The translations under genes were made by a program, and so were the position numbers. Below, piece after piece: positions 672-10,514 of a DNA stretch of 32,000 nt; position 1 is the stretch's first letter; every line of letters begins with the position of its first letter. The stretch is from Ktedonobacterales bacterium (lineage in GTDB: Bacteria; Chloroflexota; Ktedonobacteria; Ktedonobacterales; JADMIN01): NCBI GenBank assembly GCA_030167145.1, contig CP126532.1, positions 1,410,001 through 1,442,000 of the forward strand, in the 5' to 3' direction. The notes beneath the pieces are model-generated. The model was not told the origin of the DNA, ran no database searches, and saw only the letters and a program-made list of their open reading frames with translations.

Positions 672-1055
672 GTGAGCATCGTAAGCCGCTATGTTTGGTG
701 GCCGGGGCATGATGCGGGCGGTTTGCTGCCGCCGGTGGATGTGCTGGCGGGTGTGCTGGCTCCGGCGATGTGGCGTGTGCCGTCTTCGTGGCCGCCGCTG
801 ACCGCCGATGAGGCGCTGGTGTATGTGCCGCCGCAGTGGATCGGCGATTGGGAGCACGGGCACGCGCTCGCGCCAGGCTACCAGCATGTGTGGCGTGTAG
901 CGGTGGCGGCGCTGCTGCCGCTGTCGTCCGCGCCACGAACTGCGCCGTATCGGCCCGCGACCCTGCCAGAGACGGCGACGGGGCCACGGCGCATTGGGGT
1001 ATGGAGCCGTGCGCGGCGGAGTCGTGGTGAACGGGGTGGTGATGGTAGTAGGTAA
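672..1055 (+). CDS. Hypothetical small Trp/Pro-rich protein (127 aa) upstream of and overlapping the FHA-PrsW gene
   Basis: In-frame GTG at 672 lies 5 nt after GAAGGTGGAG (657..666). Third codon positions are strongly G/C, with the same ccg/gtg/ctg/gcg usage as the downstream gene. The stop at 1053..1055 overlaps the next gene start. I recognise no homology. Confidence 0.4.
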   Translation: MSIVSRYVWWPGHDAGGLLPPVDVLAGVLAPAMWRVPSSWPPLTADEALVYVPPQWIGDWEHGHALAPGYQHVWRVAVAALLPLSSAPRTAPYRPATLPETATGPRRIGVWSRARRSRGERGGDGSR

Positions 1056-2835
1056 GCGGTTGCGATTGGGGTGGCGACACGAGTCGTTGCCTACGCTAGA
1101 GGTGCTGGGGACGCCCAGCGTTGCGGTGCTGCGGGCGCGTGAATACGGTATCGGCATCGCCGATAGCGCAGACGTGCGCGGGCTGCGTGGTGGACGGGTG
1201 TTTCTGGCGGGCGGGCGTGTCTTTGCCATCTCTGGTGATGTGGCGACCCTGGGCCGCGACCTAAAGAATAGCGTGGTGCTGCTCGATCCCGCCGTCTCGC
1301 GCGAACACGCGCGGCTGCGACGCATCGCCGGCGGCTGGCTGGTCGAGAATGCGTCGGCGCGCGGGCCGGTCTGGGTGGGTGAGCGGCGGCTCGCGCCCGG
1401 CGAGATGACGGAGATTTTGCCAGGGGAATGGCTGACACTCGGCGACACGCAACTGCAATTCCTCGCGCCGGAGCTACGCGCCAGCGCAGCGGACACACCA
1501 GGTGAAGCGCCAGCGGGCAGCAGCGGGACGCGCGTGCTGGGGCTGGGGATCACGCTGCAATTCGCGCTGCGCGAGAAGCGCGGCGCACGCGCGTGGTGGG
1601 CCTTCGCGCTGGTCGTTCTGGGACTGCTGCTGGCGAGCGCGCTGGTGACGTTGGGCACGGTGGCTCTGGTGGGGCGCGACGCGGCGGCGGCCAGTGGCGT
1701 TGGGCATGTGCTGGCGGCGCTGACGATTCCGCTAGCGCCCGCGCTGGGCGCGCTCCTGTTGGTCGCGGCGTTCGACCGCTACGAGCGCGAGCCGTGGCTG
1801 CTGCTGCTGGGCGCATTCGTGTGGGGCGCGCTGGTGGCTATCCCACCGGCGTTTTTCGTGGAGCATGCGGTGAGCGGGCTGCTGCTGGGGATAGTTCCCA
1901 CTGCGGCGGGACCGCTGCCAGGGTTGGGCGCGGCGGCGGCGCAGGCGCTGAGCGCGGGCCTGACGGAAGAAGTGACCAAGGGCGCTGGGCTGCTGCTGCT
2001 GATCTGGGCGCTGCGCGATGAATTCGATAATGTCACCGATGGCATTCTCTATGGATTGCTGATCGGCGCGGGGTTTGCGATGGTGGAGAACTTCGTGTAT
2101 TTCGCGCAGAGTCCCGGTGGCAGTCTTCCGGTGCTGATTGCGGGGCGGGTGGCGCTTGGCTGGCTGAGCCATTCGACATTTACGGCATTCTTCGGCGCGG
2201 GGCTGGGCTATGCGCGCGAGCAGAAGCGGCGATGCATCCTGTGGCTGGCGCCGCTCGGTGGGCTGGCGGTAGCCGTGCTATTGCATATGGAGTTCGATTT
2301 TGTGGCGTTCGCGGCGGATGTGCTGGCGCGACAACCGTTGAGCGCGCAGGATATGCATCTGCTGGCGCTCTGCGCGACGACGCTGGCGTATCTGCCGCTC
2401 TTTGGGGCGCAGGCGGTGCTCTTGTGGCTGCTGCTGGGCGCGCTCCGGCGCGAAGCGGCGATTGTGCGGGAGTACCTTGCGCCAGAGGTGGTGGCAGGCA
2501 CGGTGCTGCCCGATGAGTACGCGCTGATGCAGCGGGCGAAGCTGCGTGGGCGGGCAGAGCGGCGGGCGCTCTTCGAGTTTGGCGCGCGCCCATATCTGAC
2601 GGCGCGGGCGCTGCACCAGACGATCACGGGGTTGGCGTTTCGCGCGTGGCACGTGGCGCAGGGCGATCCGCCCAAGCGCGGGACGATCCAACCCGAAGAC
2701 GCCTACCGCACGCGCATTGCCAGGCTGCGCGCGTCGCTGCTGCGGCAGACGCTGGCGGCATATGCGGCGGATGAAGCGAATGGGGCGGGCGACGATGCGC
2801 TTGAGGACACCATCGGCGAAGAGGCGGACGATTAG
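994..2835 (+). CDS. FHA domain fused to a PrsW-family intramembrane protease
   Basis: 613-aa ORF; the start may instead be ATG 1042. The FHA core is at about nt 1200..1470 (ATLGRD...VSREHARL...WLVENASARGPVWVGERRL...LTLGDTQLQF). It is followed by about 8 TM helices carrying PrsW motifs: LTEEVTKGAGLL (EExxK), GFAMVEN, HSTFTAFFG and LLHMEFDF (HxxxD). Confidence 0.9.
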   Translation: MGYGAVRGGVVVNGVVMVVGKRLRLGWRHESLPTLEVLGTPSVAVLRAREYGIGIADSADVRGLRGGRVFLAGGRVFAISGDVATLGRDLKNSVVLLDPAVSREHARLRRIAGGWLVENASARGPVWVGERRLAPGEMTEILPGEWLTLGDTQLQFLAPELRASAADTPGEAPAGSSGTRVLGLGITLQFALREKRGARAWWAFALVVLGLLLASALVTLGTVALVGRDAAAASGVGHVLAALTIPLAPALGALLLVAAFDRYEREPWLLLLGAFVWGALVAIPPAFFVEHAVSGLLLGIVPTAAGPLPGLGAAAAQALSAGLTEEVTKGAGLLLLIWALRDEFDNVTDGILYGLLIGAGFAMVENFVYFAQSPGGSLPVLIAGRVALGWLSHSTFTAFFGAGLGYAREQKRRCILWLAPLGGLAVAVLLHMEFDFVAFAADVLARQPLSAQDMHLLALCATTLAYLPLFGAQAVLLWLLLGALRREAAIVREYLAPEVVAGTVLPDEYALMQRAKLRGRAERRALFEFGARPYLTARALHQTITGLAFRAWHVAQGDPPKRGTIQPEDAYRTRIARLRASLLRQTLAAYAADEANGAGDDALEDTIGEEADD

Positions 2836-3443
2836 GGCTTCGCGGCGGGAGCAAACGCCAGGGTAAGGCTGCCATCGGTTGAGGTGATACCAGTGAGAAG
2901 GTAGCGTGCGGAGCCGATCTTCAGGCTGTTGGCCACATCGCCGATCTTGCTATCCAGCGCCGATGCGAGCGCGTCGTCTACGGCGGCGGGCAGGGGCAGA
3001 CCGCCGACGGTGGCGCTGAGGATGCGCGCGGCGGGCGCGCCATTCGCCACACTGAGTTGCGCCGTGACGGCGAGGCGGCGCGTGGGCGTGCCAGGGAGCA
3101 GTGTGGCGTCGCCGGAGATAGCAATCATATCGTTGGCGGCGATATGCGCCTGAAGATGACTGACGCTGAACGGCAACCCGGCCTGCGCGATGGCGGCGGA
3201 GCCGACGCTGGTGAGAAAGGCGTCATCCACGGTGAGGGTGGCCGCGCCGGAAGTGGCCGCGGAGACCTGCGTCGCGGGGGTGGGCTGCGGCGCGAGGTAG
3301 ATCAGCCCAACCACCGCCAGCAAGATACCACAGAGCAGGCCGCCAACCGCCCAGAACGCGTTCGTCCACCAGCGGCGCGGGCGCTGCTGGGGCGCGGGCG
3401 CGTTGCGGTCAACGCGGGTGGTCTGTTGGTTGGCGGTCAGCAT
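2832..3443 (-). CDS. Single-pass membrane-anchored hypothetical protein (possibly DUF2993/LmeA-like); last gene of the operon
   Basis: 203-aa ORF with AAAGGGAA RBS upstream of ATG 3443. It has a basic N-terminus, one TM helix (FWAVGGLLCGILLAVVGLIYL) and an Ala/Ser/Thr-rich beta-type ectodomain. The family assignment is only a weak impression. Confidence 0.7.
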   Translation of the reverse strand: MLTANQQTTRVDRNAPAPQQRPRRWWTNAFWAVGGLLCGILLAVVGLIYLAPQPTPATQVSAATSGAATLTVDDAFLTSVGSAAIAQAGLPFSVSHLQAHIAANDMIAISGDATLLPGTPTRRLAVTAQLSVANGAPAARILSATVGGLPLPAAVDDALASALDSKIGDVANSLKIGSARYLLTGITSTDGSLTLAFAPAAKP

Positions 3444-3502
3444 GGCGGTTCCCTTTCATACAGGCGCCCTGGATGGTGTGTGGCGCGCGTGGCAGCGCAC
3501 CG

Positions 3503-4774
3503 CTAGCGCCCGACGAGCGGCGGACGCGGACCGTAGCCGCCGCGCGATGTGATGTAGAGCGCGGTGGCCAGCAGCGCGAAGAGCAGCGCCAGCGCCGAGA
3601 AGGTGTCGAGCAGTGGCGGTGTTTTGCGCGGGATCGTGACGGTGAGCGGCGATTTCTGCGTGCCGTTTGCCGGGAAGGTGACGGCGCCAGCTTTGGCGCA
3701 GACGCCGTATGCGGCGCCGTTGGCGAGCACGGTGAAGGTCACCTGGAAGTTTCCTGACCCGTCGGTTTTCGCCGTTCGCTGCTGTACTGCCGTCGTGGTA
3801 CATGGCTGGTTGGAAGGCACGACAAAGACGGTGATCTGTGTCCCGTTGGGCCAGTGTTGCCCGGTCACCGTGATAGATGTCTCCTGGGTGGTGATAGGCG
3901 TGGACTGGCGCGTTACGGAAGCAGGCACGCAACTCGACTTCGCGACCGAGAGACACGGCGTGGGGACGATGATGACCAGCGGCGATGGCTGTGTGCTTTT
4001 CGATGGGAATATCGTTATGCCATCGGTGGTCTTGGCGCAGACGCCGAAGTTCCCTCCGGTCGCGGGCGCGATGAGTGCGGTAGTGAATGTGGCGTCAGTG
4101 CCTACCGTCGCCGCTTGAGATGATGCTGATGTTGGGACGCTGCATGGCTGACCACCAGGCACGAGGAAGACGGTGACTTGTGCGTCGCTTGGCCAGTATT
4201 GTCCCGCCACATTGACCGTTGTCCCCGGCGGGACAGTGGGGGATGATTGCTGCGTTGTGTTAGCAGGTATACAATCCAAATCCCCGATGGCCAGACAGGG
4301 CATGGGAAGTTCGACGGTCAGCGGCGATGCCTTTGTGTTATCTGCTGGGTATATCGTTGCGCCATCAGTAGTTTTGGCGCAGACGCCGTATACGACGCCG
4401 CTCGCGAGCGCGCTGAAGCTCGCGCTGAAAGTCTCTTTTCCGTCAACTTGCTCCAACTGGGATGTTCCCAATGGTGGGGTACTGCATGGCTGACCACCAG
4501 TGACAAGGAAGACAGAGACTTCTGAGCCGACTGGCCAGCGTTCCCCCTTCACGACGAAATTGGGCGTGGGCACCTTAACGAGTTTGGAGTTCGTTTCCGT
4601 ATTGTCTATGCACCCCGAGTCCCCGATAGACAGGCAGGGTGCGGCGGAATTTGACCCACGCATGGATGCATGCGGGTGATGCTGGGTCGCGGGCGCCGCA
4701 AAACCCGACCCAACCGCCAACACGAAGGTCAAGAGCAACAGCACGCTAAATGAGAGCAGCGACCGTCTGAACAT
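3503..4774 (-). CDS. Secreted, C-terminally membrane-anchored protein with three tandem ~113-aa Cys-containing Ig-like repeats
   Basis: GAGGAGG RBS before ATG 4774. Signal peptide MFRRSLLSFSVLLLLTFVLAVGSGFA. Three repeats share PCL-x5-C ... G-x-W/YWP ... VFLV..GQPC ... YGVCAKTTDG.TI.P....SPL. The C-terminus has a TM helix (FSALALLFALLATALYI) and a basic tail. Confidence 0.85.
   Translation of the reverse strand: MFRRSLLSFSVLLLLTFVLAVGSGFAAPATQHHPHASMRGSNSAAPCLSIGDSGCIDNTETNSKLVKVPTPNFVVKGERWPVGSEVSVFLVTGGQPCSTPPLGTSQLEQVDGKETFSASFSALASGVVYGVCAKTTDGATIYPADNTKASPLTVELPMPCLAIGDLDCIPANTTQQSSPTVPPGTTVNVAGQYWPSDAQVTVFLVPGGQPCSVPTSASSQAATVGTDATFTTALIAPATGGNFGVCAKTTDGITIFPSKSTQPSPLVIIVPTPCLSVAKSSCVPASVTRQSTPITTQETSITVTGQHWPNGTQITVFVVPSNQPCTTTAVQQRTAKTDGSGNFQVTFTVLANGAAYGVCAKAGAVTFPANGTQKSPLTVTIPRKTPPLLDTFSALALLFALLATALYITSRGGYGPRPPLVGR
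3629..4639 (-). repeat. Three tandem intragenic repeats (period 339-342 nt, 113-114 aa) inside the surface protein gene
   Basis: The identical 15-mer TTGGCGCAGACGCCG recurs at 3693, 4032 and 4374 on the + strand, with spacings of 339 and 342 nt. At protein level, 4 Cys per unit are conserved in register. Confidence 0.8.
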
Positions 4775-4820
4775 GGTACGCCTCCTCTGAGTCTTTGGTA
4801 TCTCGGAGCGATAGCGATGG

Positions 4821-6134
4821 TTAGATCACGTGGAACGCCGACAGGATGATGAGCAGGGCGATGAAGATGGCGATAGACCAGACCACCACCGTGCCTACCG
4901 AACCGCTGCGCTTAGCTTTGGTTGCGGGGACTGGCGGCAAGGGCTGCGAGTAGGGCTGCGCGGGCCAATTTGGGTTGGGACGGGGTGTTGCGGGACTGAC
5001 TGGTAGCTGATATTGCGCCCGGCCCGGCTGCGCCGTGGAATTGCTGGGCGCGGGTCCGGCCGTCGCGATGGGCACCCTCGCGCCAAGTGGCTTGGACATC
5101 TCCGCGGGTGGCGGCGGCACGAAGGCACGCGGCGTAGCGGTCAGCGGCACACTGGCCGCAGCCCCTTTGCCGCTAGCGATGTCGGCGAGCGAGCGCGGCA
5201 TGCGGCGCTGCTCCAGCGCGGCGCGCAACTCGCGGACATAAGGTTCCACTGGAGCGCCGCATTTGGCGCGCATGCGCTCGATGTTGCTGGTGGCCAGGGT
5301 GGGGTTGTCGTAGTCGTCGCGCGAGAAGAGCAGCCGCTCGTCTTCGCGTGCGCCCAATTCGTTGTAGAGCGCCGGACGGATGGAGATCGCCAGCAGCGAG
5401 AGGTAGATCACCAGCGCAGAGAAGCGGTCCATCTCGGCGTCGAAGGGGCGGTTCGCGGGGTTGGGCTTGTCGCCCGGCCGGAAGAACTGCGGATGCTGAA
5501 ACGGCTTGTGGCCGCATTCGGTCTGCGCCTTGCCCGCCAGCAGCGGCACCCACATGTTGTCGTAGTCAATCAGCCGCAGTTGGGGTTGTCCGCCCGCCTC
5601 CTGGATCAGCACATTGGTCAGGTCGAGGTCGCCGTGCGCGATGCCCACCGCTTCAAGCTGGCCGATCATCTGCCGCCATGCCTCGCCGAGCGTGCGCATG
5701 CGGTTGGTATCGTTATAGTAGTCCGCGATGTAGCTGCCCAGCCGTCGGGTGTTATTGAGCCACTGCGTTTTGATGACCGGACGCCAGTTTTTGGCGACGT
5801 AGATACCATGCTCGACATAGGTCGTCGGGATGAGCGCGGGAACCTCGGCCTGTTTCGCGGTAATGTACTGGCTGATCCGCTGATAGCGCTCGACAATATC
5901 AGTGGGCGGATTGATATGCTCATCAATATTGGAGCAAAAGCAGCGGGCCTGAAAGTTGCCAAGCTTATAGAAGGTGATGTAGAGGCCTGCGCCGCCGTAG
6001 CGCGCGGGGCCACCGGTGGGCATCGTCGCGAGATTGGCGGCTTTCAGCTCGGCGTCGTTGACGTTGGTGCGCCACTGCTTGATGGCCTCGTCGTATTCCG
6101 GCCGGGTGGGCCAGGTTGGCTTCCAGTCAGCCAT
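4821..6134 (-). CDS. Protein-kinase-like (PKL) fold phosphotransferase with Pro-rich linker and C-terminal tail anchor
   Basis: 437 aa. Catalytic loop HGDLDLTNVLI (HxDxxxxN) and metal-binding LIDYDNMWVP (DFG-equivalent Asp). Gly-rich YGGAGLY near the N-lobe. The C-terminal ~110 aa are Pro/Ala-rich and end in the TM helix VVVWSIAIFIALLIILSAF. Confidence 0.85.
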   Translation of the reverse strand: MADWKPTWPTRPEYDEAIKQWRTNVNDAELKAANLATMPTGGPARYGGAGLYITFYKLGNFQARCFCSNIDEHINPPTDIVERYQRISQYITAKQAEVPALIPTTYVEHGIYVAKNWRPVIKTQWLNNTRRLGSYIADYYNDTNRMRTLGEAWRQMIGQLEAVGIAHGDLDLTNVLIQEAGGQPQLRLIDYDNMWVPLLAGKAQTECGHKPFQHPQFFRPGDKPNPANRPFDAEMDRFSALVIYLSLLAISIRPALYNELGAREDERLLFSRDDYDNPTLATSNIERMRAKCGAPVEPYVRELRAALEQRRMPRSLADIASGKGAAASVPLTATPRAFVPPPPAEMSKPLGARVPIATAGPAPSNSTAQPGRAQYQLPVSPATPRPNPNWPAQPYSQPLPPVPATKAKRSGSVGTVVVWSIAIFIALLIILSAFHVI

Positions 6135-6168
6135 GCGTTTCTTCTCTCTATCGCATCACATCGGCGCG

Positions 6169-7491
6169 CTATTCGATGGGGATGACGAGCAAGGTGTAGT
6201 CATCTTTGTCCATGCGGCCGGTCTGGTATTCGCGCTCCACGAGCTGTTCGAACTCTGCCTGGTCGCGCATGGTAAGCGCGAGGTGCCAGTCGGGCGTGAA
6301 GGCGTCCGCGCCGTTGCTGGTGACATGTTTCGCGCGTTTGCCATTCGCGGCCAGGGATTGCGCGAGCAGCCACTTGGCGACGCTATCGGTGGCGAGCACC
6401 ACCAGATCGCCGCGCTGCACATCTTCGTCGTACACCTTGACCGACGACACCATGCGCTTGACTATATCGGACGAGTTGTCGGTGATGAGCGTGCTGGGGG
6501 TGTCGTTGAATTGCCCAGGGTCGTTCAATGGCCTGGCGGCTTTGAGTCGCCAGTCGCCGCCACGTCCGCTGAAGATCAGGCATTCAGAGTCGCCGACGGC
6601 GGTGACTGCCACATGTTTGCCGTTCAGGGCGCAGGCGACCAGCGTAGTCTGCGCGTTGCTCTTCCAGACTTCGCTGAGCCAGTAGGTCAGGGTGGGGTTG
6701 CCTGATGGCTCAGTGGAGAGCTTTGCCGCCCAGTGTTCATACATCCACAGACGCCAATCGCGCCTGCACGCGGAGAGCCAGCGAGCGAAGTCTTTCGAAT
6801 CGCTAAACGTTGGCTCGCGCTGGACGAAGTTGCGTGCGACAATGCGCGCCCACGGCGCAGGCATTCTACTATTGCTCACGCCATCGGTGACGGCGTAGAT
6901 ACCCCGGCTGCTATCGCAGGCGAAGCCATCCTGGCAGAGTTGTGATTTGTCTTTCGATACCCTGAACAGACGAACGTTGTTGCCCAATTGCTCGCCCGAC
7001 AGATCGAAGAGTTGGTCGTTCTCGAAGGGCGACCTGGGATCAGGAGGGGTGGCGCTCGTGGGGCCAGTCATCGGCGCCCGCTGATTGGGCAACGTCCGTG
7101 GCGCTTCGGGCAGCACCGGCATCGGCGCGGGCATCGGCATGTACGGATTGGTGGCGTTGGGATCAGCGCCGCCGTTGCGCTGGCCAGGCTGTTTGCTGCT
7201 CATGACGACGATTGGCGCTGACACGTCACTCCACACCCAGCGGATGAAGATGATGATGCCCCAGAGCATGGCGATGATGGCGAGCAGGCGCACGGGTCTC
7301 TGCGTATTATCAGCAGTTTGGTTATTGAGCAGGCTGGCCAGCGCGCAGGCGATGGTGGCGCAGGCGAGGATCAATCCCACACGCTTGGTGGCCAGCAGCC
7401 GCTTGCGCTGGGCGGGTGATAGCTGCGGTGGTGGGGGCAGAGTCGCGGGGGGATTGGCCCGCGATGTAGGTGGAAGATGCGATAATGACAT
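6169..7491 (-). CDS. Membrane-tethered PP2C (PPM)-family phosphatase-like protein
   Basis: GGAGG RBS 6 nt before ATG 7491. The N-terminus has a two-helix TM hairpin (VGLILACATIACALASLL; LLAIIAMLWGIIIFIRWVW), then a Pro/Met-rich linker. The PP2C-like blocks are CQDGFAC..GIYAVTDGVSNS, TTLVACALNGKHVAVTAVGDSECLIF, GDLVVLATDSVAKWL and DDYTLLVIPI. Confidence 0.85.
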   Translation of the reverse strand: MSLSHLPPTSRANPPATLPPPPQLSPAQRKRLLATKRVGLILACATIACALASLLNNQTADNTQRPVRLLAIIAMLWGIIIFIRWVWSDVSAPIVVMSSKQPGQRNGGADPNATNPYMPMPAPMPVLPEAPRTLPNQRAPMTGPTSATPPDPRSPFENDQLFDLSGEQLGNNVRLFRVSKDKSQLCQDGFACDSSRGIYAVTDGVSNSRMPAPWARIVARNFVQREPTFSDSKDFARWLSACRRDWRLWMYEHWAAKLSTEPSGNPTLTYWLSEVWKSNAQTTLVACALNGKHVAVTAVGDSECLIFSGRGGDWRLKAARPLNDPGQFNDTPSTLITDNSSDIVKRMVSSVKVYDEDVQRGDLVVLATDSVAKWLLAQSLAANGKRAKHVTSNGADAFTPDWHLALTMRDQAEFEQLVEREYQTGRMDKDDYTLLVIPIE

Positions 7492-7536
7492 GAAGCGCCT
7501 CCTACGGTGTCGAGAGCGCGTAGCCGCGCGAGACGA

Positions 7537-8454
7537 TTACCAGCCGCCGACGGTGCCCTGGGTGCCCCAGCGCAAGAATTCGGCGAGGAGTTGGGCATTG
7601 GCGTTGTAGACAAACGTGTGCGCGCCCGGCGGCACCTGGCGCCCGTGGGTGATGCGCGCGGCTTTCTCGCGCAACAGATCGGGCATGATGCTGCTCATGT
7701 TGAACATCGTGACGGCGGTAGGGTGCAACTGCACGAGTTCGGCGGGACTGGATGGGAAGACGAGCGGCTGCCGCCGATCTTTGGTGATGTGGCAGGTGAA
7801 GATCAGGCAGTTGCCCTGGCTAGTGCCCTGGCTGCGAATCGCGGCGGCGACCGCCTCAGGATCGCCCTCGCCGTTGTGCTCGGCGTCGGTGATGTTGATG
7901 ACGACGGGCGGAAAGCATTCATGCCGCGCGGCTTGCCCTGGCTCTTGCGGCGGCAGCGGCATGGCGGTATCGAGCCAGCGCTGGATGATGAACTGCGCCT
8001 GCTGCAACGCTTTGGCCATCTGGGTGCGGCCCTCGGCCTTGGGCTGGTCAATCCAGTAGGGCGCGGTGACGATGGCGGTGCGGTAGGTGTTGGCGCCACT
8101 ATCAAAGATGGCGCGCTGCACCTCTTGTGTGCCGACGAAGTGCTGCGAGAGGTAGCGAATATCCAGCGGTTCTCCCGGAGGGCCTCCGGGGCGGTTGAGA
8201 ACCGACATAACCGAATCGTTGTAGCCGAAGACGCTGATATAGGCGAGCTTCTTGACCTGATTGCTGTCGTCCACGCCCGCCGCGTCACACATCGTGGCGA
8301 TCAGCTCGTTGACGGCGGCGGTGGCGTAGTCGGCTTTGGTGAGCTGCTCGCCTTCCACCTGCTCGCTCATCGAGCCAGATTGATCGAGCAGCACGACGAA
8401 CAAGCCCGGACGCTGCCGGGTGAGCCGCTCAGTGTAGTATGCGCGAGTTTCCAT
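7537..8454 (-). CDS. von Willebrand factor A (vWA) domain protein with intact MIDAS (TerY-like)
   Basis: The track ORF starts at 8481, but AAGGGGGGA precedes ATG 8454 (METRAYY...). MIDAS residues are VVLLDQSGSMS (DxSxS), EGRTQMAKAL (Thr) and VVINITDAEHNG (Asp). No TM segment or other domain is visible. Confidence 0.9.
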   Translation of the reverse strand: METRAYYTERLTRQRPGLFVVLLDQSGSMSEQVEGEQLTKADYATAAVNELIATMCDAAGVDDSNQVKKLAYISVFGYNDSVMSVLNRPGGPPGEPLDIRYLSQHFVGTQEVQRAIFDSGANTYRTAIVTAPYWIDQPKAEGRTQMAKALQQAQFIIQRWLDTAMPLPPQEPGQAARHECFPPVVINITDAEHNGEGDPEAVAAAIRSQGTSQGNCLIFTCHITKDRRQPLVFPSSPAELVQLHPTAVTMFNMSSIMPDLLREKAARITHGRQVPPGAHTFVYNANAQLLAEFLRWGTQGTVGGW

Positions 8455-8523
8455 CAGTGCAATCCCCCCTTGGTGAACCATGTCAATGTTGAGCGGGCGC
8501 GAAATAATGCCAAATAATGCCGG

Positions 8524-9201
8524 TTAGCTCATATTGGGCGCAACATCAATGCGCCGGGCGAAGAAGAAGGCGATGGATGCGGTCACGCCGAAGGTGAGCA
8601 GGGTGGTGGTCGGGAAAATAGCGAAGATGTCGCCGGGGCCGGGGTGCATCGGCAGCAGCGAATCGGAATTGACGAAGGAGCAGAGGATATTCCCCGCGAT
8701 AATGCCCAGGATGCCGCCCAGTGTGCAGAGGATCAGCGACTCGCCGACGAGCATGCCGATGACTTCCTCCTGGTGATCGCCACCCTGGCGCTCGATGCCG
8801 ATGGCGCGGCGGCGCTGGCTGGTGTTGACCCACGTGACGATGCCCACCAGCGCGGCGGTAAAGCCGATAGCCAGCTTGGTGAGCAGGCTGCGCGTGGAAT
8901 CTAGCACTGACTGAATCTCATGGATGTCCACGCCCGATTGAATCAACAACTGCGCCTGCCCCGGCCTGTTGGTCTTGAGCAAACCGTCGATCTTGGTCTG
9001 AATGCCATTGCTGGCGGCGATGATGGCAATGGCGATGCACACCCCGACGAGAACGGCGATGACGATGGAAGCCGCGCGCCAGGGCTGATCTTTGATGTTG
9101 CGCAGGATGCGGTAGAGCCAGAAGCCAACCGTGCGCTGCTGCCGCGTTTTGATGGCGCGCTTGGCCGGACCGCGTGAAGGAGATGCGCTATAGGGTTGCA
9201 T
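8524..9201 (-). CDS. FtsX/MacB-type ABC permease, minimal 4-TM form with a very short extracytoplasmic loop
   Basis: 225 aa. TM1 is AASIVIAVLVGVCIAIAIIAA, followed by a ~45-aa loop. The FtsX-domain signature is SQRRRAIGIERQGGDHQEEVIGMLVGESLILCTLGGILGIIAG, and a final TM helix follows. Confidence 0.85.
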   Translation of the reverse strand: MQPYSASPSRGPAKRAIKTRQQRTVGFWLYRILRNIKDQPWRAASIVIAVLVGVCIAIAIIAASNGIQTKIDGLLKTNRPGQAQLLIQSGVDIHEIQSVLDSTRSLLTKLAIGFTAALVGIVTWVNTSQRRRAIGIERQGGDHQEEVIGMLVGESLILCTLGGILGIIAGNILCSFVNSDSLLPMHPGPGDIFAIFPTTTLLTFGVTASIAFFFARRIDVAPNMS

Positions 9202-9266
9202 AGGAGATGGCCTTTGCTGATCCGTTTCTGTCGTTCAATGCGTGCGCATGTGGGATGCGCGGCCCC

Positions 9267-10307
9267 TCATGGCTGCTGGGCGGGTCCGCGTACCAGCGGC
9301 GAGTAGCGCAGGTCGCTCTTGATATGCCCGTTTTCCAGCAGGATGACGCGGTGAAAGCGATCCATCAGATTTGGCTGGTGCGCGATCACCACCACCGTGT
9401 ACCCCTCCGCCGCGAGATCCTGAAAGAGATCTACCGTGTTGATCCGCGATTCCTCGTCCAGCGCGGGGAGAATCTCGTCGCTGAGGCAGATGGGGCGCTC
9501 GGCGGCATAGGCTTTGCCAATCGCCACACGTGCCCACTCACCACCAGAGAGCGTTTTGATGGTCGCTTCGAAACGCTCACGGAGGAGGCGCGCCTTAGTC
9601 AGCCCCACTTCAGCCCGGCGGGCGCCTTCATCCAGTGGGATACCCTCGAAATCATAGAGCAGGCGACGGATGCACTCGACCGGCGTGAGAATGTCTATCA
9701 GCCCCAGCCCTTTCTGAGGAATATAGGTGATGCCGCCGCCGCGCAGATCGTCACGCGCATGCGCTGAGAGCGCGCCGACATTGCGATCCAGGATGTGCAA
9801 CTGTCCGCGCTCAATCTCGGTTTCGAGCGCGAGCATGCGGATGAGGGTGGATTTTCCCGATCCACTGGGGCCACCGATGTAGGTCAACTCACCGGGATAG
9901 ATCCGCAGATCAGGAATAGAGAGGGTGAAGCCCGTTTTCTCAAAGTGCGAATAGAGTCCCTGGATGACGATAGTGGGCGTCTCACGTGGAGGTGTGTAGG
10001 GAACTGGCTTGACGTTTGTTCCCGCCACTACGTATCCGCCCAATTGTTGTCCCGGTCCAGTCGGAGGCATAGAGCGCCATAGTGGTACGGGAGGCTGAAT
10101 TGGGACCGGCCCAGGTCCAGTCGGAGTGAGCCTCGATCCGCCGACGGGTTTGGGCAACGGTGGCGGCGGAGGCGCGCCCCATGGCGGTGCGGCTGGCGGC
10201 TGTTGCGCGGGGTATATATTCTGCATCGGCTTGCCCAGAGGTTTTGAGAGCGGTGGTCCATTGGGATGCTGATTGTTGGGATCGTGGGCCATGTCGCTGC
10301 CTCTCAT
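9267..10307 (-). CDS. ABC transporter ATP-binding protein (FtsE/MacB/LolD-like) with ~110-aa Pro-rich N-terminal extension
   Basis: Walker A GGPSGSGKST, signature LSGGEWARV, Walker B ICLSDE, H-loop VVVIAHQ. The N-terminus is low complexity (PPAAPPWGAPPPPPLPKP...). The start may be ATG 10292 (MAHDPNN), which is preceded by GAGAGG. Confidence 0.9.
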   Translation of the reverse strand: MRGSDMAHDPNNQHPNGPPLSKPLGKPMQNIYPAQQPPAAPPWGAPPPPPLPKPVGGSRLTPTGPGPVPIQPPVPLWRSMPPTGPGQQLGGYVVAGTNVKPVPYTPPRETPTIVIQGLYSHFEKTGFTLSIPDLRIYPGELTYIGGPSGSGKSTLIRMLALETEIERGQLHILDRNVGALSAHARDDLRGGGITYIPQKGLGLIDILTPVECIRRLLYDFEGIPLDEGARRAEVGLTKARLLRERFEATIKTLSGGEWARVAIGKAYAAERPICLSDEILPALDEESRINTVDLFQDLAAEGYTVVVIAHQPNLMDRFHRVILLENGHIKSDLRYSPLVRGPAQQP

Positions 10308-10514
10308 ACAAAGAAACAGTGCTATTCGCAGTGGCGCGAATGTCTCACGCGCGCTGTGTAGCGTCTGCCGGAAGAGTTCACCAAGCGCAGTCTACACTAC
10401 AATGGTTGGGCTTGTCTAGTAGCACTGCATCGTGGCTTGAAATTGGGCGCGAGTGGCACGGCGAGCGGCACGTGTTGCAATCTATTCAGCGAGTACGCTG
10501 CAACGCGAACACAC

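What the first reader, a model, noticed from the sequence alone, without database searches (positions are those of the whole stretch)
2832..10307. Seven-gene membrane-associated operon coupling a vWA-PP2C-kinase triad to an FtsEX/MacB-type ABC module and a Cys-repeat surface protein
Seen in the sequence:
- Seven same-strand genes are separated by only 34-65 nt.
- Most have their own GGAGG-like RBS.
- Gene order: ABC ATPase, 4-TM FtsX-type permease, soluble vWA with intact MIDAS, PP2C with an N-terminal TM hairpin, PKL kinase with a C-terminal tail anchor, signal-peptide protein with three Ig-like Cys repeats, single-pass membrane protein.

Established knowledge:
- vWA + PP2C + Ser/Thr-kinase triads were predicted by comparative genomics as a phosphorylation switch. 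As I recall, this is the 'TerY-P triad' from the Aravind group's work on Ter stress-response systems. To my knowledge its function has not been shown experimentally.
- FtsEX/MacB-type (type VII) ABC systems act as mechanotransmitters that drive extracytoplasmic partners, not as importers.

Inference: I do not recognise this seven-gene architecture as a described system. The physical linkage suggests one envelope-spanning signalling or conflict apparatus, in which ATP-driven conformational work at the membrane is coupled to a reversible phosphorylation/MIDAS switch and a surface receptor-like protein.
Basis: partly seen in the sequence, partly recalled or inferred. Interest (0 to 1): 0.85.

Follow-up and report, generated by a model that had tools for sequence, protein, structure and literature searches.

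The report
Membrane-tethered TerY-P switch with ABC module
A soil Ktedonobacterales genome carries a conserved six-gene cluster that tethers a known vWA, phosphatase and kinase triad (TerY-P, an anti-phage module) to the membrane, next to a stripped-down FtsX-type ABC motor and a fast-evolving Ig-like surface protein, an arrangement I found no description of.

Summary
Seven minus-strand genes (2832-10307) lie 34-65 nt apart, and every domain call is right.

- **Triad.** The vWA, PP2C and kinase match the PADLOC TerY-P models (E 1e-34, 8e-19, 3e-41). This is the Anantharaman/Aravind triad.
- **What differs here.** The kinase has no OB fold or zinc ribbon. It ends in a Pro-rich tether and a tail anchor. 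The PP2C has an N-terminal TM hairpin.
- **Fourth conserved gene.** It encodes a signal peptide, 1-3 four-Cys Ig-like repeats and a TM anchor. It follows the kinase in 11 Ktedonobacteria loci.
- **ABC module.** The ABC ATPase and a minimal FtsX (4 TM, about 45-aa outer loop, no periplasmic domain) precede the triad in at least 11 independent loci. Those loci fall mostly in one kinase clade. The short-FtsX family has about 40 clusters, and about three quarters of members with readable context sit beside a triad.
- **Seventh gene.** It has no homologue in about 30 related loci and is not part of the unit. Neither is the adjacent FHA-PrsW gene.

The closest functional precedent is the T6SS threonine-phosphorylation pathway (TagTS ABC, PpkA-vWA, PppA, Fha1). 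Verdict: a new variant of a known kind. The function is inferred, either defence or envelope surveillance.

The parts
10389..10418 (-). Promoter-like site. It lies in the 145-nt divergent intergenic region upstream of the ABC gene.
   Evidence: Consensus scan, 9/12 match. Three sites were found against 2.1 expected, so this is weak evidence on its own.
9267..10307 (-). ABC ATPase of the FtsE/LolD/MacB/DevA type. It has a Pro-rich N-terminal extension of about 110 aa (38% Pro over residues 14-73). The likely start is M6 (nt 10292).
   Evidence: Pfam ABC_tran 3.8e-18. Best NCBIfam hits are DevA, FtsE, MacB and LolD, all below their cut-offs. Walker A, LSGGE, Walker B and the H-loop are present. 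The N-terminal extension and its start (MAHDP vs MADNP) are conserved in L004 and L011. Orthologues are in L003, L004, L011, L012, L027, L030, L031 and L034-L037.
8524..9201 (-). Minimal FtsX-type permease (225 aa). It has an N-terminal amphipathic helix and 4 TM segments. The outer loop between TM1 and TM2 is about 45 aa, so there is no periplasmic domain.
   Evidence: Pfam FtsX 2.9e-13. Hydropathy. AlphaFold2 model with pLDDT 84. Top Foldseek hits are FtsX, MacB, HrtB, LolC/E, BceB and YtrF. It belongs to a tight family of about 40 clusters (E<1e-34), followed by a gap to E 5e-8 for permeases carrying MacB_PCD.
7537..8481 (-). Soluble TerY-type vWA protein with an intact MIDAS site. The likely start is M10 (nt 8454), giving 305 aa.
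   Evidence: PADLOC TerY 1.1e-34. Pfam VWA_2 3.9e-4, below the cut-off. D33/S35/S37, T153 and D199 are conserved in 23 orthologues. No TM segment.
6169..7491 (-). PP2C phosphatase with an N-terminal TM hairpin, a Pro-rich tether (about 90-170) and a cytoplasmic catalytic domain (about 175-440).
   Evidence: PADLOC PP2C 7.7e-19. Pfam PP2C_2 3.7e-4. Acidic motifs D188, D203-G, D301, D369 and D430/431 are conserved. The TM hairpin is also present in most Ktedonobacteria orthologues. GGAGG RBS.
4821..6134 (-). TerY-P-type Ser/Thr kinase (Kdo/Bud32-like) of about 320 aa, followed by a Pro-rich tether and a C-terminal tail anchor (416-434). It has no OB fold or zinc ribbon.
   Evidence: PADLOC STK_OB 2.9e-41, covering only model positions 3-259 of 562. 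Pfam Kdo 7.8e-7. HGDLDLTN and DYD are invariant in 25 homologues. The nearest solved structure is TP53RK/Bud32, only at E 0.02. The C-terminal TM segment is in most Ktedonobacteria orthologues.
3503..4774 (-). Surface protein: a signal peptide, three 113-aa Ig-like repeats with four Cys each, a C-terminal TM anchor and a short basic tail.
   Evidence: Repeat alignment. AlphaFold2 model of repeat 2: pLDDT 90, 7-stranded beta sandwich. Best PDB matches are the neocarzinostatin and macromomycin apoproteins, TM about 0.56. A home-built HMM finds the repeat directly downstream of the kinase in 11 loci, in 1-3 copies. Only 3 hits among 1.84 billion representatives, one of them a fragment of this same protein.
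2832..3443 (-). Single-pass membrane protein (203 aa). It sits 59 nt downstream on the same strand. It is adjacent but is not a conserved part of the system.
   Evidence: One TM segment at 32-50. No Pfam, PADLOC or NCBIfam family. phmmer at E<=10 finds no homologue in any other locus.
994..2835 (+). FHA-PrsW intramembrane protease fusion. It is a convergent neighbour that overlaps the gene 7 stop by 4 nt. It is not conserved with the system.
   Evidence: Pfam PrsW-protease 7.9e-37 and FHA 5.2e-8. tblastn finds it only in the window's own genome. FHA proteins lie within 10 kb in only 3 loci.

Best explanation
Genes 10307 to 3503 form one conserved six-gene unit in a Ktedonobacterales (Chloroflexota) genome. 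I read it as a membrane-tethered derivative of the TerY-P phosphorylation triad.

Shown:
- A soluble MIDAS-vWA protein, a PP2C and a Kdo/Bud32-like Ser/Thr kinase are homologous to the TerY-P defence proteins.
- The PP2C is held at the membrane by an N-terminal hairpin and the kinase by a C-terminal tail anchor.
- Each catalytic domain sits on the cytoplasmic side, on a Pro-rich tether of about 80 aa.
- A fourth conserved gene encodes a single-pass protein with 1-3 disulfide-type Ig-like repeats outside the cell. This gene evolves fastest.
- In one clade a type VII ABC pair is added upstream: a FtsE/LolD-like ATPase and a 4-TM FtsX with no periplasmic domain.

Inferred:
- The Ig-like protein, or the state of the membrane itself, supplies the input.
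- The kinase and PP2C set the phosphorylation state of the vWA protein or of another target. The MIDAS site of the vWA protein then engages or releases a partner.
- The ABC-FtsX pair has no outer domain to push on a periplasmic partner. It more likely acts within the membrane as an ATP-driven modulator or sensor of the tethered kinase and phosphatase. TagTS does this upstream of PpkA in the T6SS threonine-phosphorylation pathway, and BceAB does it with BceS.
- The most likely biological role is surveillance of phage attack or envelope damage. The output effector is unknown.
For: - PADLOC TerY, PP2C and STK_OB matches.
- Conserved catalytic and MIDAS residues.
- The triad is present in every related genome locus with enough flank.
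- The PP2C TM hairpin and the kinase tail anchor recur across Ktedonobacteria. Distant Thermotogae and Bacteroidales triads are soluble.
- The Cys-repeat domain lies directly after the kinase in 11 loci.
- ABC-FtsX-vWA-PP2C-kinase in the same order in L003, L004, L011, L012, L030, L031 and L035. L027, L034 and L036/37 are cut by contig ends but show the same order as far as the vWA or PP2C gene. Flanks are unrelated.
- ABC-bearing loci cluster in the kinase tree.
- The short-FtsX family is compact. Of about 15 members with readable context, at least 11 are followed by the vWA gene in this order.
- The FtsX model shows the type VII fold without an ectodomain.
- Window-to-L003 identity is 62-65% for ABC, FtsX and vWA, 44-51% for PP2C and kinase, and about 35% for the repeat protein.
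- Some repeat proteins carry cytoplasmic TPR tails (L018-L020), and one kinase is fused to TM segments plus TPR (L035). Both fit a receptor role.
- Kinase homologues fused to TIR domains exist.
- Literature: TerY-P as a stand-alone defence system; TagTS-PpkA-PppA-Fha1.
Against: - No experiment or transcript data exist for this locus.
- No effector gene is evident.
- The window flanks are housekeeping genes (Lon, PIG-L, ornithine cyclodeaminase, GT87, glycogen debranching).
- Ten proteins flanking six related loci gave no defence-model hit apart from a generic ABC ATPase. There is therefore no defence-island signal.
- No relatives were found on viral contigs.
- The kinase lacks the OB fold of the validated TerY-P type.
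- ABC-FtsX is absent from many loci, including L005 inside the ABC-bearing clade, so it is dispensable.
- The genome survey used two peptide patterns and one genome per species. The context counts are small samples.
- Physical contact among the membrane parts is pure inference.
Confidence: 0.5

Rival explanations
1. The unit is a housekeeping Ser/Thr signalling module for envelope homeostasis or development in filamentous, sporulating Ktedonobacteria. It would be unrelated to phage or inter-bacterial conflict, and the TerY-P similarity would reflect only shared ancestry of the triad.
For: - Housekeeping flanks in the window.
- No defence-model hits among flanking genes of six related loci.
- Frequent neighbourhood with Hanks kinases, WD40 and FHA proteins.
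- Two paralogous loci in one MAG (L010 and L011).
- No viral-contig relatives.
Against: - Strong matches to the models of a validated defence system.
- TIR-fused kinase homologues.
- Patchy presence with flanks that are never conserved.
- A rapidly diverging, copy-number-variable ectodomain with almost no detectable homologues. These features are typical of conflict systems.
Confidence: 0.3
2. The ABC-FtsX pair is the effector rather than a sensor. Once the phospho-switch fires, the ATPase-driven 4-TM bundle perturbs the membrane or exports something, giving growth arrest or abortive infection.
For: - The same short ABC-FtsX module is found beside other conflict-type proteins. In L028 it sits with a Hanks kinase-WD40 and a NERD-FHA protein, next to a ubiquitin-like E1/E2/JAB cluster. 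In L029 a short FtsX sits with TIR-TM proteins.
- No other effector is visible in the operon.
Against: - Loci without ABC-FtsX keep the triad and the repeat protein, so an effector would be missing there.
- I know of no FtsX-type ABC that acts as a toxic effector (own knowledge).
- The ATPase motifs look like those of a normal cycling NBD.
Confidence: 0.12
3. ABC-FtsX is an ordinary small exporter, for example for an antimicrobial peptide or lipid. It would merely be syntenic with the triad, with no functional coupling.
For: - JGI annotates homologues as antimicrobial-peptide or lipoprotein-release permeases.
- The module also occurs without a triad (L028, L029, L032).
Against: - The same gene order, with small gaps, is kept in at least 11 loci with unrelated flanks.
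- ABC presence tracks the kinase phylogeny.
- The family is small, and most members with readable context lie next to triads.
- It lacks the extracytoplasmic substrate-handling domain of MacB, LolCE and HrtB.
Confidence: 0.07

Closest known systems
TerY-P triad (Anantharaman, Iyer & Aravind 2012). The stand-alone kinase-OB version was validated as an anti-phage system by Gao et al. 2020, and PADLOC carries it as 'TerY-P'.
   Same: - Three adjacent genes in the same order: a TerY-type MIDAS vWA, a PP2C and a Ser/Thr kinase.
- All three match the PADLOC models.
- Catalytic and MIDAS residues are kept.
   Different: - The kinase has neither the C-terminal OB fold (Gao type) nor the zinc ribbon (CoCoNuT-associated type). 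It has a Pro-rich tether and a tail anchor instead.
- The PP2C has gained a TM hairpin.
- A fourth conserved surface-protein gene and an optional ABC-FtsX pair are attached.
- The variant is so far restricted to Ktedonobacteria.
T6SS threonine-phosphorylation pathway of Pseudomonas aeruginosa (TagQRST-PpkA-PppA-Fha1)
   Same: - It couples an inner-membrane ABC-like complex to a membrane Ser/Thr kinase carrying a vWA domain, a PP2C phosphatase and an FHA reader. The ABC complex is TagT (COG1136 ATPase) plus TagS (COG4591 LolC/E-type permease).
- It senses envelope damage.
- The domain inventory is the same as here. In the window, an FHA protein is also next door.
   Different: - PpkA is a Hanks kinase with the vWA domain fused and facing outside. 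Here the vWA is a separate cytoplasmic TerY-type protein and the kinase is Kdo/Bud32-like.
- There are no TagQ, TagR or T6SS genes.
- The FHA neighbour is not conserved.
- The host is a Chloroflexota bacterium, not a proteobacterium.
- This is an analogy of design, not demonstrated homology of the system.
FtsEX, MacB, LolCDE and HrtBA (type VII ABC mechanotransmitters)
   Same: - NBD of the same clade.
- The permease has the FtsX Pfam domain.
- Its predicted fold matches these transporters best.
   Different: - The loop between TM1 and TM2 is about 45 aa. It lacks the 100-200-aa Porter/Sabre or FtsX ectodomain that binds EnvC, PcsB, MacA, lipoproteins or haem.
- The ATPase carries a Pro-rich N-terminal extension.
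BceAB-BceRS-type transporter-kinase sensory complexes
   Same: An FtsX-domain ABC transporter controls a membrane kinase through intramembrane contact. BceB is among the structural matches. I recall this mechanism from my own knowledge of the BceAB-S cryo-EM work.
   Different: - BceB has 10 TM segments and a large ectodomain.
- Its partner is a histidine kinase.
- No response regulator is present here.

Membership tests
TerY-P triad | TerY-type vWA protein with a MIDAS motif | tested here: met
   PADLOC TerY 1.1e-34 over 16-308. DxSxS, T and D are conserved in 23 orthologues.
TerY-P triad | Adjacent PP2C-type phosphatase | tested here: met
   PADLOC PP2C 7.7e-19. Acidic metal-binding motifs are conserved.
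TerY-P triad | Adjacent Ser/Thr kinase of the TerY-P kinase family | tested here: met
   PADLOC STK_OB 2.9e-41 for the kinase half. The catalytic loop and the DYD motif are invariant.
TerY-P triad | Kinase fused at its C-terminus to an OB fold (validated defence type) or a zinc ribbon (CoCoNuT type) | tested here: not met
   The match stops at model position 259 of 562. Residues 320-437 are a Pro-rich linker plus a TM anchor.
TerY-P triad | Confers phage resistance | not testable with these tools
   This needs an experiment. No defence-island context was seen.
Type VII ABC (MacB/FtsX superfamily) | FtsE/LolD/MacB-type NBD with intact ATPase motifs | tested here: met
   ABC_tran 3.8e-18. Best NCBIfam hits are DevA, FtsE, MacB and LolD. 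Motifs located.
Type VII ABC (MacB/FtsX superfamily) | Four-TM FtsX-domain permease with an N-terminal amphipathic helix and extended TM1/TM2 | tested here: met
   Pfam FtsX 2.9e-13. AlphaFold2 model, pLDDT 84. Top Foldseek hits are FtsX, MacB, HrtB and LolCE, probability 1.0.
Type VII ABC (MacB/FtsX superfamily) | Large extracytoplasmic domain between TM1 and TM2 that transmits force to a partner | tested here: not met
   Only about 45 residues lie between TM1 and TM2 (62-106), modelled as helix extensions plus one short helix. There is no MacB_PCD hit, and homologues carrying it score only E 5e-8.
T6SS threonine-phosphorylation pathway (TagQRST-PpkA-PppA-Fha1) | LolD/LolE-type ABC complex linked to a Ser/Thr kinase, a PP2C and a vWA domain | tested here: met
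   The domain set is present and the linkage is conserved. TagS is COG4591 and TagT is COG1136 according to PMC13584744.
T6SS threonine-phosphorylation pathway (TagQRST-PpkA-PppA-Fha1) | Hanks-type kinase with a fused extracytoplasmic vWA domain; TagQ and TagR; T6SS core genes nearby | tested here: not met
   The kinase is Kdo/Bud32-like. Pfam Pkinase scores only 0.05, and hhalign against Hanks kinases covers only the C-lobe at 79% probability. The vWA is a separate soluble protein. No T6SS genes are in the window.
T6SS threonine-phosphorylation pathway (TagQRST-PpkA-PppA-Fha1) | FHA-domain reader of the phosphothreonine signal | tested here: inconclusive
   An FHA-PrsW gene is adjacent in the window. 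FHA genes occur within 10 kb in only 3 of about 36 loci. All three carry ABC-FtsX.

The most novel reading that the evidence does not exclude
The six genes would build a bacterial receptor-kinase complex for immunity or envelope surveillance. In this reading a hypervariable Ig-like ectodomain protein detects phage or surface damage. An FtsX-type ABC motor that has lost its ectodomain works purely inside the membrane as an ATP-driven allosteric gate. That gate acts on a tail-anchored kinase and a hairpin-anchored PP2C, which flip a MIDAS-vWA switch. This would be a new way of using type VII ABC machinery and the first membrane-embedded form of TerY-P.
Probability: 0.2. Interest if true: 0.75.

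Novelty: new variant of a known kind. Interest (0 to 1): 0.55.

Why it matters
- TerY-P is a validated anti-phage system, but I found no paper describing its mechanism, sensor or effector.
- A natural variant with both enzymes tethered to the membrane, a dedicated surface protein and an optional ABC motor points to the membrane as the place where the triad works. It also gives concrete partners to test.
- It defines a compact, ectodomain-less FtsX family. Its existence argues that type VII ABC proteins can act through intramembrane contacts alone, as proposed for TagTS-PpkA and BceAB-BceS.
- It fills an annotation gap in Ktedonobacteria. The repeat protein matches no Pfam, NCBIfam or PADLOC family, and one gene caller misses it entirely.

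Tried and rejected
- **Metagenome scan with the FtsX alignment** gave one locus only (L027).
- **Word-indexed homologue search with the Cys-repeat protein** returned nothing. The exhaustive search gave only 3 hits. I built my own HMM from the loci instead.
I used the three window repeats plus P0171 and P0172.
- **The Anantharaman 2012 and Casabona 2013 papers** are not held. Their content is cited second-hand from papers that are held.
- **Viral contigs** hold no relatives of the kinase. Plasmids hold only two distant soluble triads in cyanobacteria.
- **Rfam and tRNA scans** of the window found nothing.
- **Gene 7 and FHA-PrsW as system parts:** rejected for lack of conservation.
- **A BceAB-type or canonical FtsEX/MacB role:** rejected as membership because the ectodomain is missing.
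- **The kinase beta3 lysine:** I tried to locate it by profile comparison with Hanks kinases, but only the C-lobe aligned. The invariant Arg64 at the expected position stays unexplained.

Full report
**Source.** The window is part of a 5.07-Mb contig of a Ktedonobacterales (Chloroflexota) MAG. The kinase is NCBI locus tag OJF49_001304.

**Observation.** Seven minus-strand ORFs lie at 9267-10307, 8524-9201, 7537-8481, 6169-7491, 4821-6134, 3503-4774 and 2832-3443. They are separated by 65, 42, 45, 34, 46 and 59 nt.

- GGAGG precedes the PP2C gene, the repeat-protein gene and an internal vWA start (M10) that the gene callers use. The other sites are weaker.
- No internal terminators appear above chance. 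One promoter-like site lies in the divergent region upstream of the ABC gene.
- No Rfam family or tRNA gene is present.

**Domain calls.**

- Pfam supports ABC_tran, FtsX and a Kdo-type kinase. It gives only sub-threshold VWA_2 and PP2C_2 hits.
- PADLOC settles the triad: TerY 1.1e-34, PP2C 7.7e-19, STK_OB 2.9e-41.
- The STK_OB match covers only the kinase half of the model. The window protein continues with a Pro-rich stretch and a C-terminal TM helix.
- The vWA MIDAS residues D33/S35/S37, T153 and D199 are conserved across 23 orthologues. So are the PP2C acidic motifs across 20 orthologues, and the kinase HGDLDLTN and DYD motifs across 25 homologues.
- The ATPase has all its motifs. Its best NCBIfam neighbours are DevA, FtsE, MacB and LolD.
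- Its Pro-rich N-terminal extension is real coding sequence. The start (MAHDP vs MADNP) and the extension align with L004 and L011.

**The permease.** It is a 225-aa protein with four TM helices and only about 45 residues between TM1 and TM2.

- An AlphaFold2 model (pLDDT 84) shows an N-terminal amphipathic helix, long TM1 and TM2 helices, a short cytoplasmic helix, then TM3 and TM4.
- All top PDB matches are type VII ABC permeases: FtsX, MacB, HrtB, LolC/E, BceB and YtrF.
- It has the fold, but it lacks the ectodomain that defines how those machines work.

**The repeat protein.** It has a signal peptide, three 113-aa repeats with four aligned Cys each, a C-terminal TM anchor and a short basic tail.

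- Repeat 2 folds with pLDDT 90 into a seven-stranded beta sandwich.
- The best PDB matches are the two-disulfide Ig-like apoproteins neocarzinostatin and macromomycin, at TM about 0.56 and 12-16% identity. 'Ig-like' is supported. Specific homology is not.
- The protein is almost orphan. An exhaustive search of 1.84 billion representatives found 3 hits, one of them a fragment of this same protein.

**Conservation of the neighbourhood.** A pattern-based scan of one genome per species returned 24 loci.

- The vWA-PP2C-kinase order is present wherever the flank allows.
- In Ktedonobacteria the PP2C has the TM hairpin and the kinase has the tail anchor. Distant triads in Thermotogae and Bacteroidales are soluble and carry long C-terminal extensions.
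- An HMM built from the repeats finds the domain immediately downstream of the kinase in 11 loci, in 1-3 copies.
- In L018-L020 the same kind of protein has a cytoplasmic TPR tail. In L035 the kinase itself is fused to TM segments and TPR repeats.
- ABC-FtsX lies directly upstream of the vWA gene in the window, L003, L004, L011, L012, L027, L030, L031, L034, L035 and L036/37. The flanks are unrelated.
- In an NJ tree of the kinases, the ABC-bearing loci form one clade. L005 is a loss within that clade, and L012 lies outside it.

**Reverse test on the short FtsX family.** The family is compact: about 40 clusters at E<1e-34, then a jump to E 5e-8 for permeases with MacB_PCD. I could read the context of about 15 members.

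- At least 11 are in the ABC-FtsX-triad order.
- One contig appears to hold a re-ordered linkage.
- Three sit elsewhere. L028 has a Hanks kinase-WD40 and a NERD-FHA protein beside a ubiquitin-like E1/E2/JAB cluster. L029 has two TIR-TM proteins and no ATPase. L032 lies at a contig edge beside an integrase.

**What is not part of the unit.** Gene 7 has no homologue in any other locus, even at E<=10. The FHA-PrsW neighbour is specific to this genome. FHA genes occur within 10 kb in only three loci, all of them ABC-bearing. That is a lead, not a finding.

**Rates of divergence.** Between the window and L003, identity is 62-65% for ABC, FtsX and vWA. It is 44-51% for PP2C and kinase, and about 35% for the repeat protein. 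That gradient is expected if the ectodomain faces diversifying pressure.

**Comparison with what is known.**

- The triad was defined by Anantharaman et al. (2012). A kinase-OB version works as a stand-alone anti-phage system (Gao et al. 2020), and a kinase-zinc-ribbon version accompanies CoCoNuT systems. The present kinase has neither appendage.
- No held paper mentions TerY together with FtsX.
- One described pathway uses the same domain set. In the P. aeruginosa H1-T6SS, the ABC-like TagTS complex (COG1136/COG4591) acts upstream of PpkA, a membrane kinase with an outer vWA domain. PppA (PP2C) and Fha1 complete the pathway, which responds to envelope damage.
- The resemblance is one of design. 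The kinase families differ, and only the C-lobe aligns with Hanks kinases. The vWA is separate and cytoplasmic here, and no T6SS genes are present.

**Defence or signalling?**

- For defence: the model matches, TIR-fused kinase homologues, patchy distribution, and the orphan-like variable ectodomain.
- Against: housekeeping flanks in the window, no defence-model hits among ten flanking proteins of six loci, and no viral or informative plasmid relatives.
- I therefore commit to a membrane-tethered TerY-P-type switch that surveys phage attack or envelope damage, with ABC-FtsX as an accessory intramembrane modulator. I keep a non-conflict signalling role as a serious rival.

**Verdict.**

The unit is six genes, not seven. 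The triad is already known and has been validated as a defence system. A canonical mechanotransmission role for the FtsX is unlikely, and a functional precedent exists.
- The specific architecture appears undescribed: both enzymes tethered to the membrane, a dedicated Ig-like surface protein, and an ectodomain-less type VII ABC pair. It is conserved within Ktedonobacteria. I classify it as a new variant of a known kind, of moderate interest.

Noticed in passing
window 994-2835 (+): An FHA domain is fused to a PrsW-type intramembrane protease. The gene is convergent with gene 7 and overlaps its stop by 4 nt. An FHA reader next to a kinase/PP2C operon is suggestive, but the gene is not conserved with the system. 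FHA genes lie within 10 kb only in the window, L028 and L031, and all three carry ABC-FtsX.
   Followed up: partly
window 4821-6134 (-), kinase residue R64: The kinase family has an invariant Arg (VRCF motif) about 105 residues before the catalytic Asp, where the beta3 Lys of protein kinases is expected. A conserved Glu lies 18 residues later. Profile comparison with Hanks kinases aligned only the C-lobe, so the assignment is unverified.
   Followed up: partly
L028 1-13336: The same short ABC-FtsX pair sits between a CAP-domain protein and a Hanks kinase-WD40 plus a NERD-FHA protein. A ThiF/E1, JAB, YukD-like ubiquitin-like and E2 cluster lies immediately upstream, and IS110 transposases are nearby.
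   Followed up: partly
L029 7277-11057: Two proteins with an N-terminal TIR domain and a multi-TM C-terminus precede a short FtsX that has no ATPase gene. A polytopic membrane protein and an N6/N4 methyltransferase follow.
   Followed up: partly
L013 5700-7451, L014 5907-7718, L017 5772-7478, L020 5580-6911 (all -): In the triad clade that lacks ABC-FtsX, one family of proteins lies divergently just upstream of the vWA gene in all four loci. The L013 and L017 members are Hanks kinase-WD40 proteins by Pfam. L014 and L020 are assigned by clustering only.
   Followed up: partly
P0101, P0102, P0104, P0119 (kinase homologues): Some homologues of the kinase carry TIR domains (PF01582/PF13676), a typical immune effector domain.
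   Followed up: no
L018 986-3592, L019 1199-3220, L020 11824-13011, L035 4898-7936: Cys-repeat proteins with long cytoplasmic tails after the TM segment. TPR is confirmed by Pfam only in L018, and L019 gave no Pfam hit. In L035 the kinase itself is fused to TM segments and a TPR-like region read from the sequence. This suggests modular receptor architectures.
   Followed up: partly
L012 6707-7651; the same gap in L027 1357-2467: An extra six-TM protein with no Pfam family is inserted between FtsX and the vWA gene.
   Followed up: no
L001 11361-12632 (= window 3503-4774): The JGI gene calls for this contig miss the 423-aa Cys-repeat gene and list three short ORFs instead. The Logan assembly calls it correctly. 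This is an annotation gap for a conserved component.
   Followed up: yes
window 9978-10307 (-), ABC residues 1-110: The ABC ATPase carries a Pro-rich N-terminal extension (38% Pro over 60 residues). It is conserved in orthologues. It is unusual for FtsE/LolD-type NBDs and its role is unknown.
   Followed up: partly
L028 5665-7140 and L034 1879-3153: CAP-domain (PF00188) secreted proteins lie a few genes upstream of the ABC-FtsX pair in two unrelated loci.
   Followed up: no
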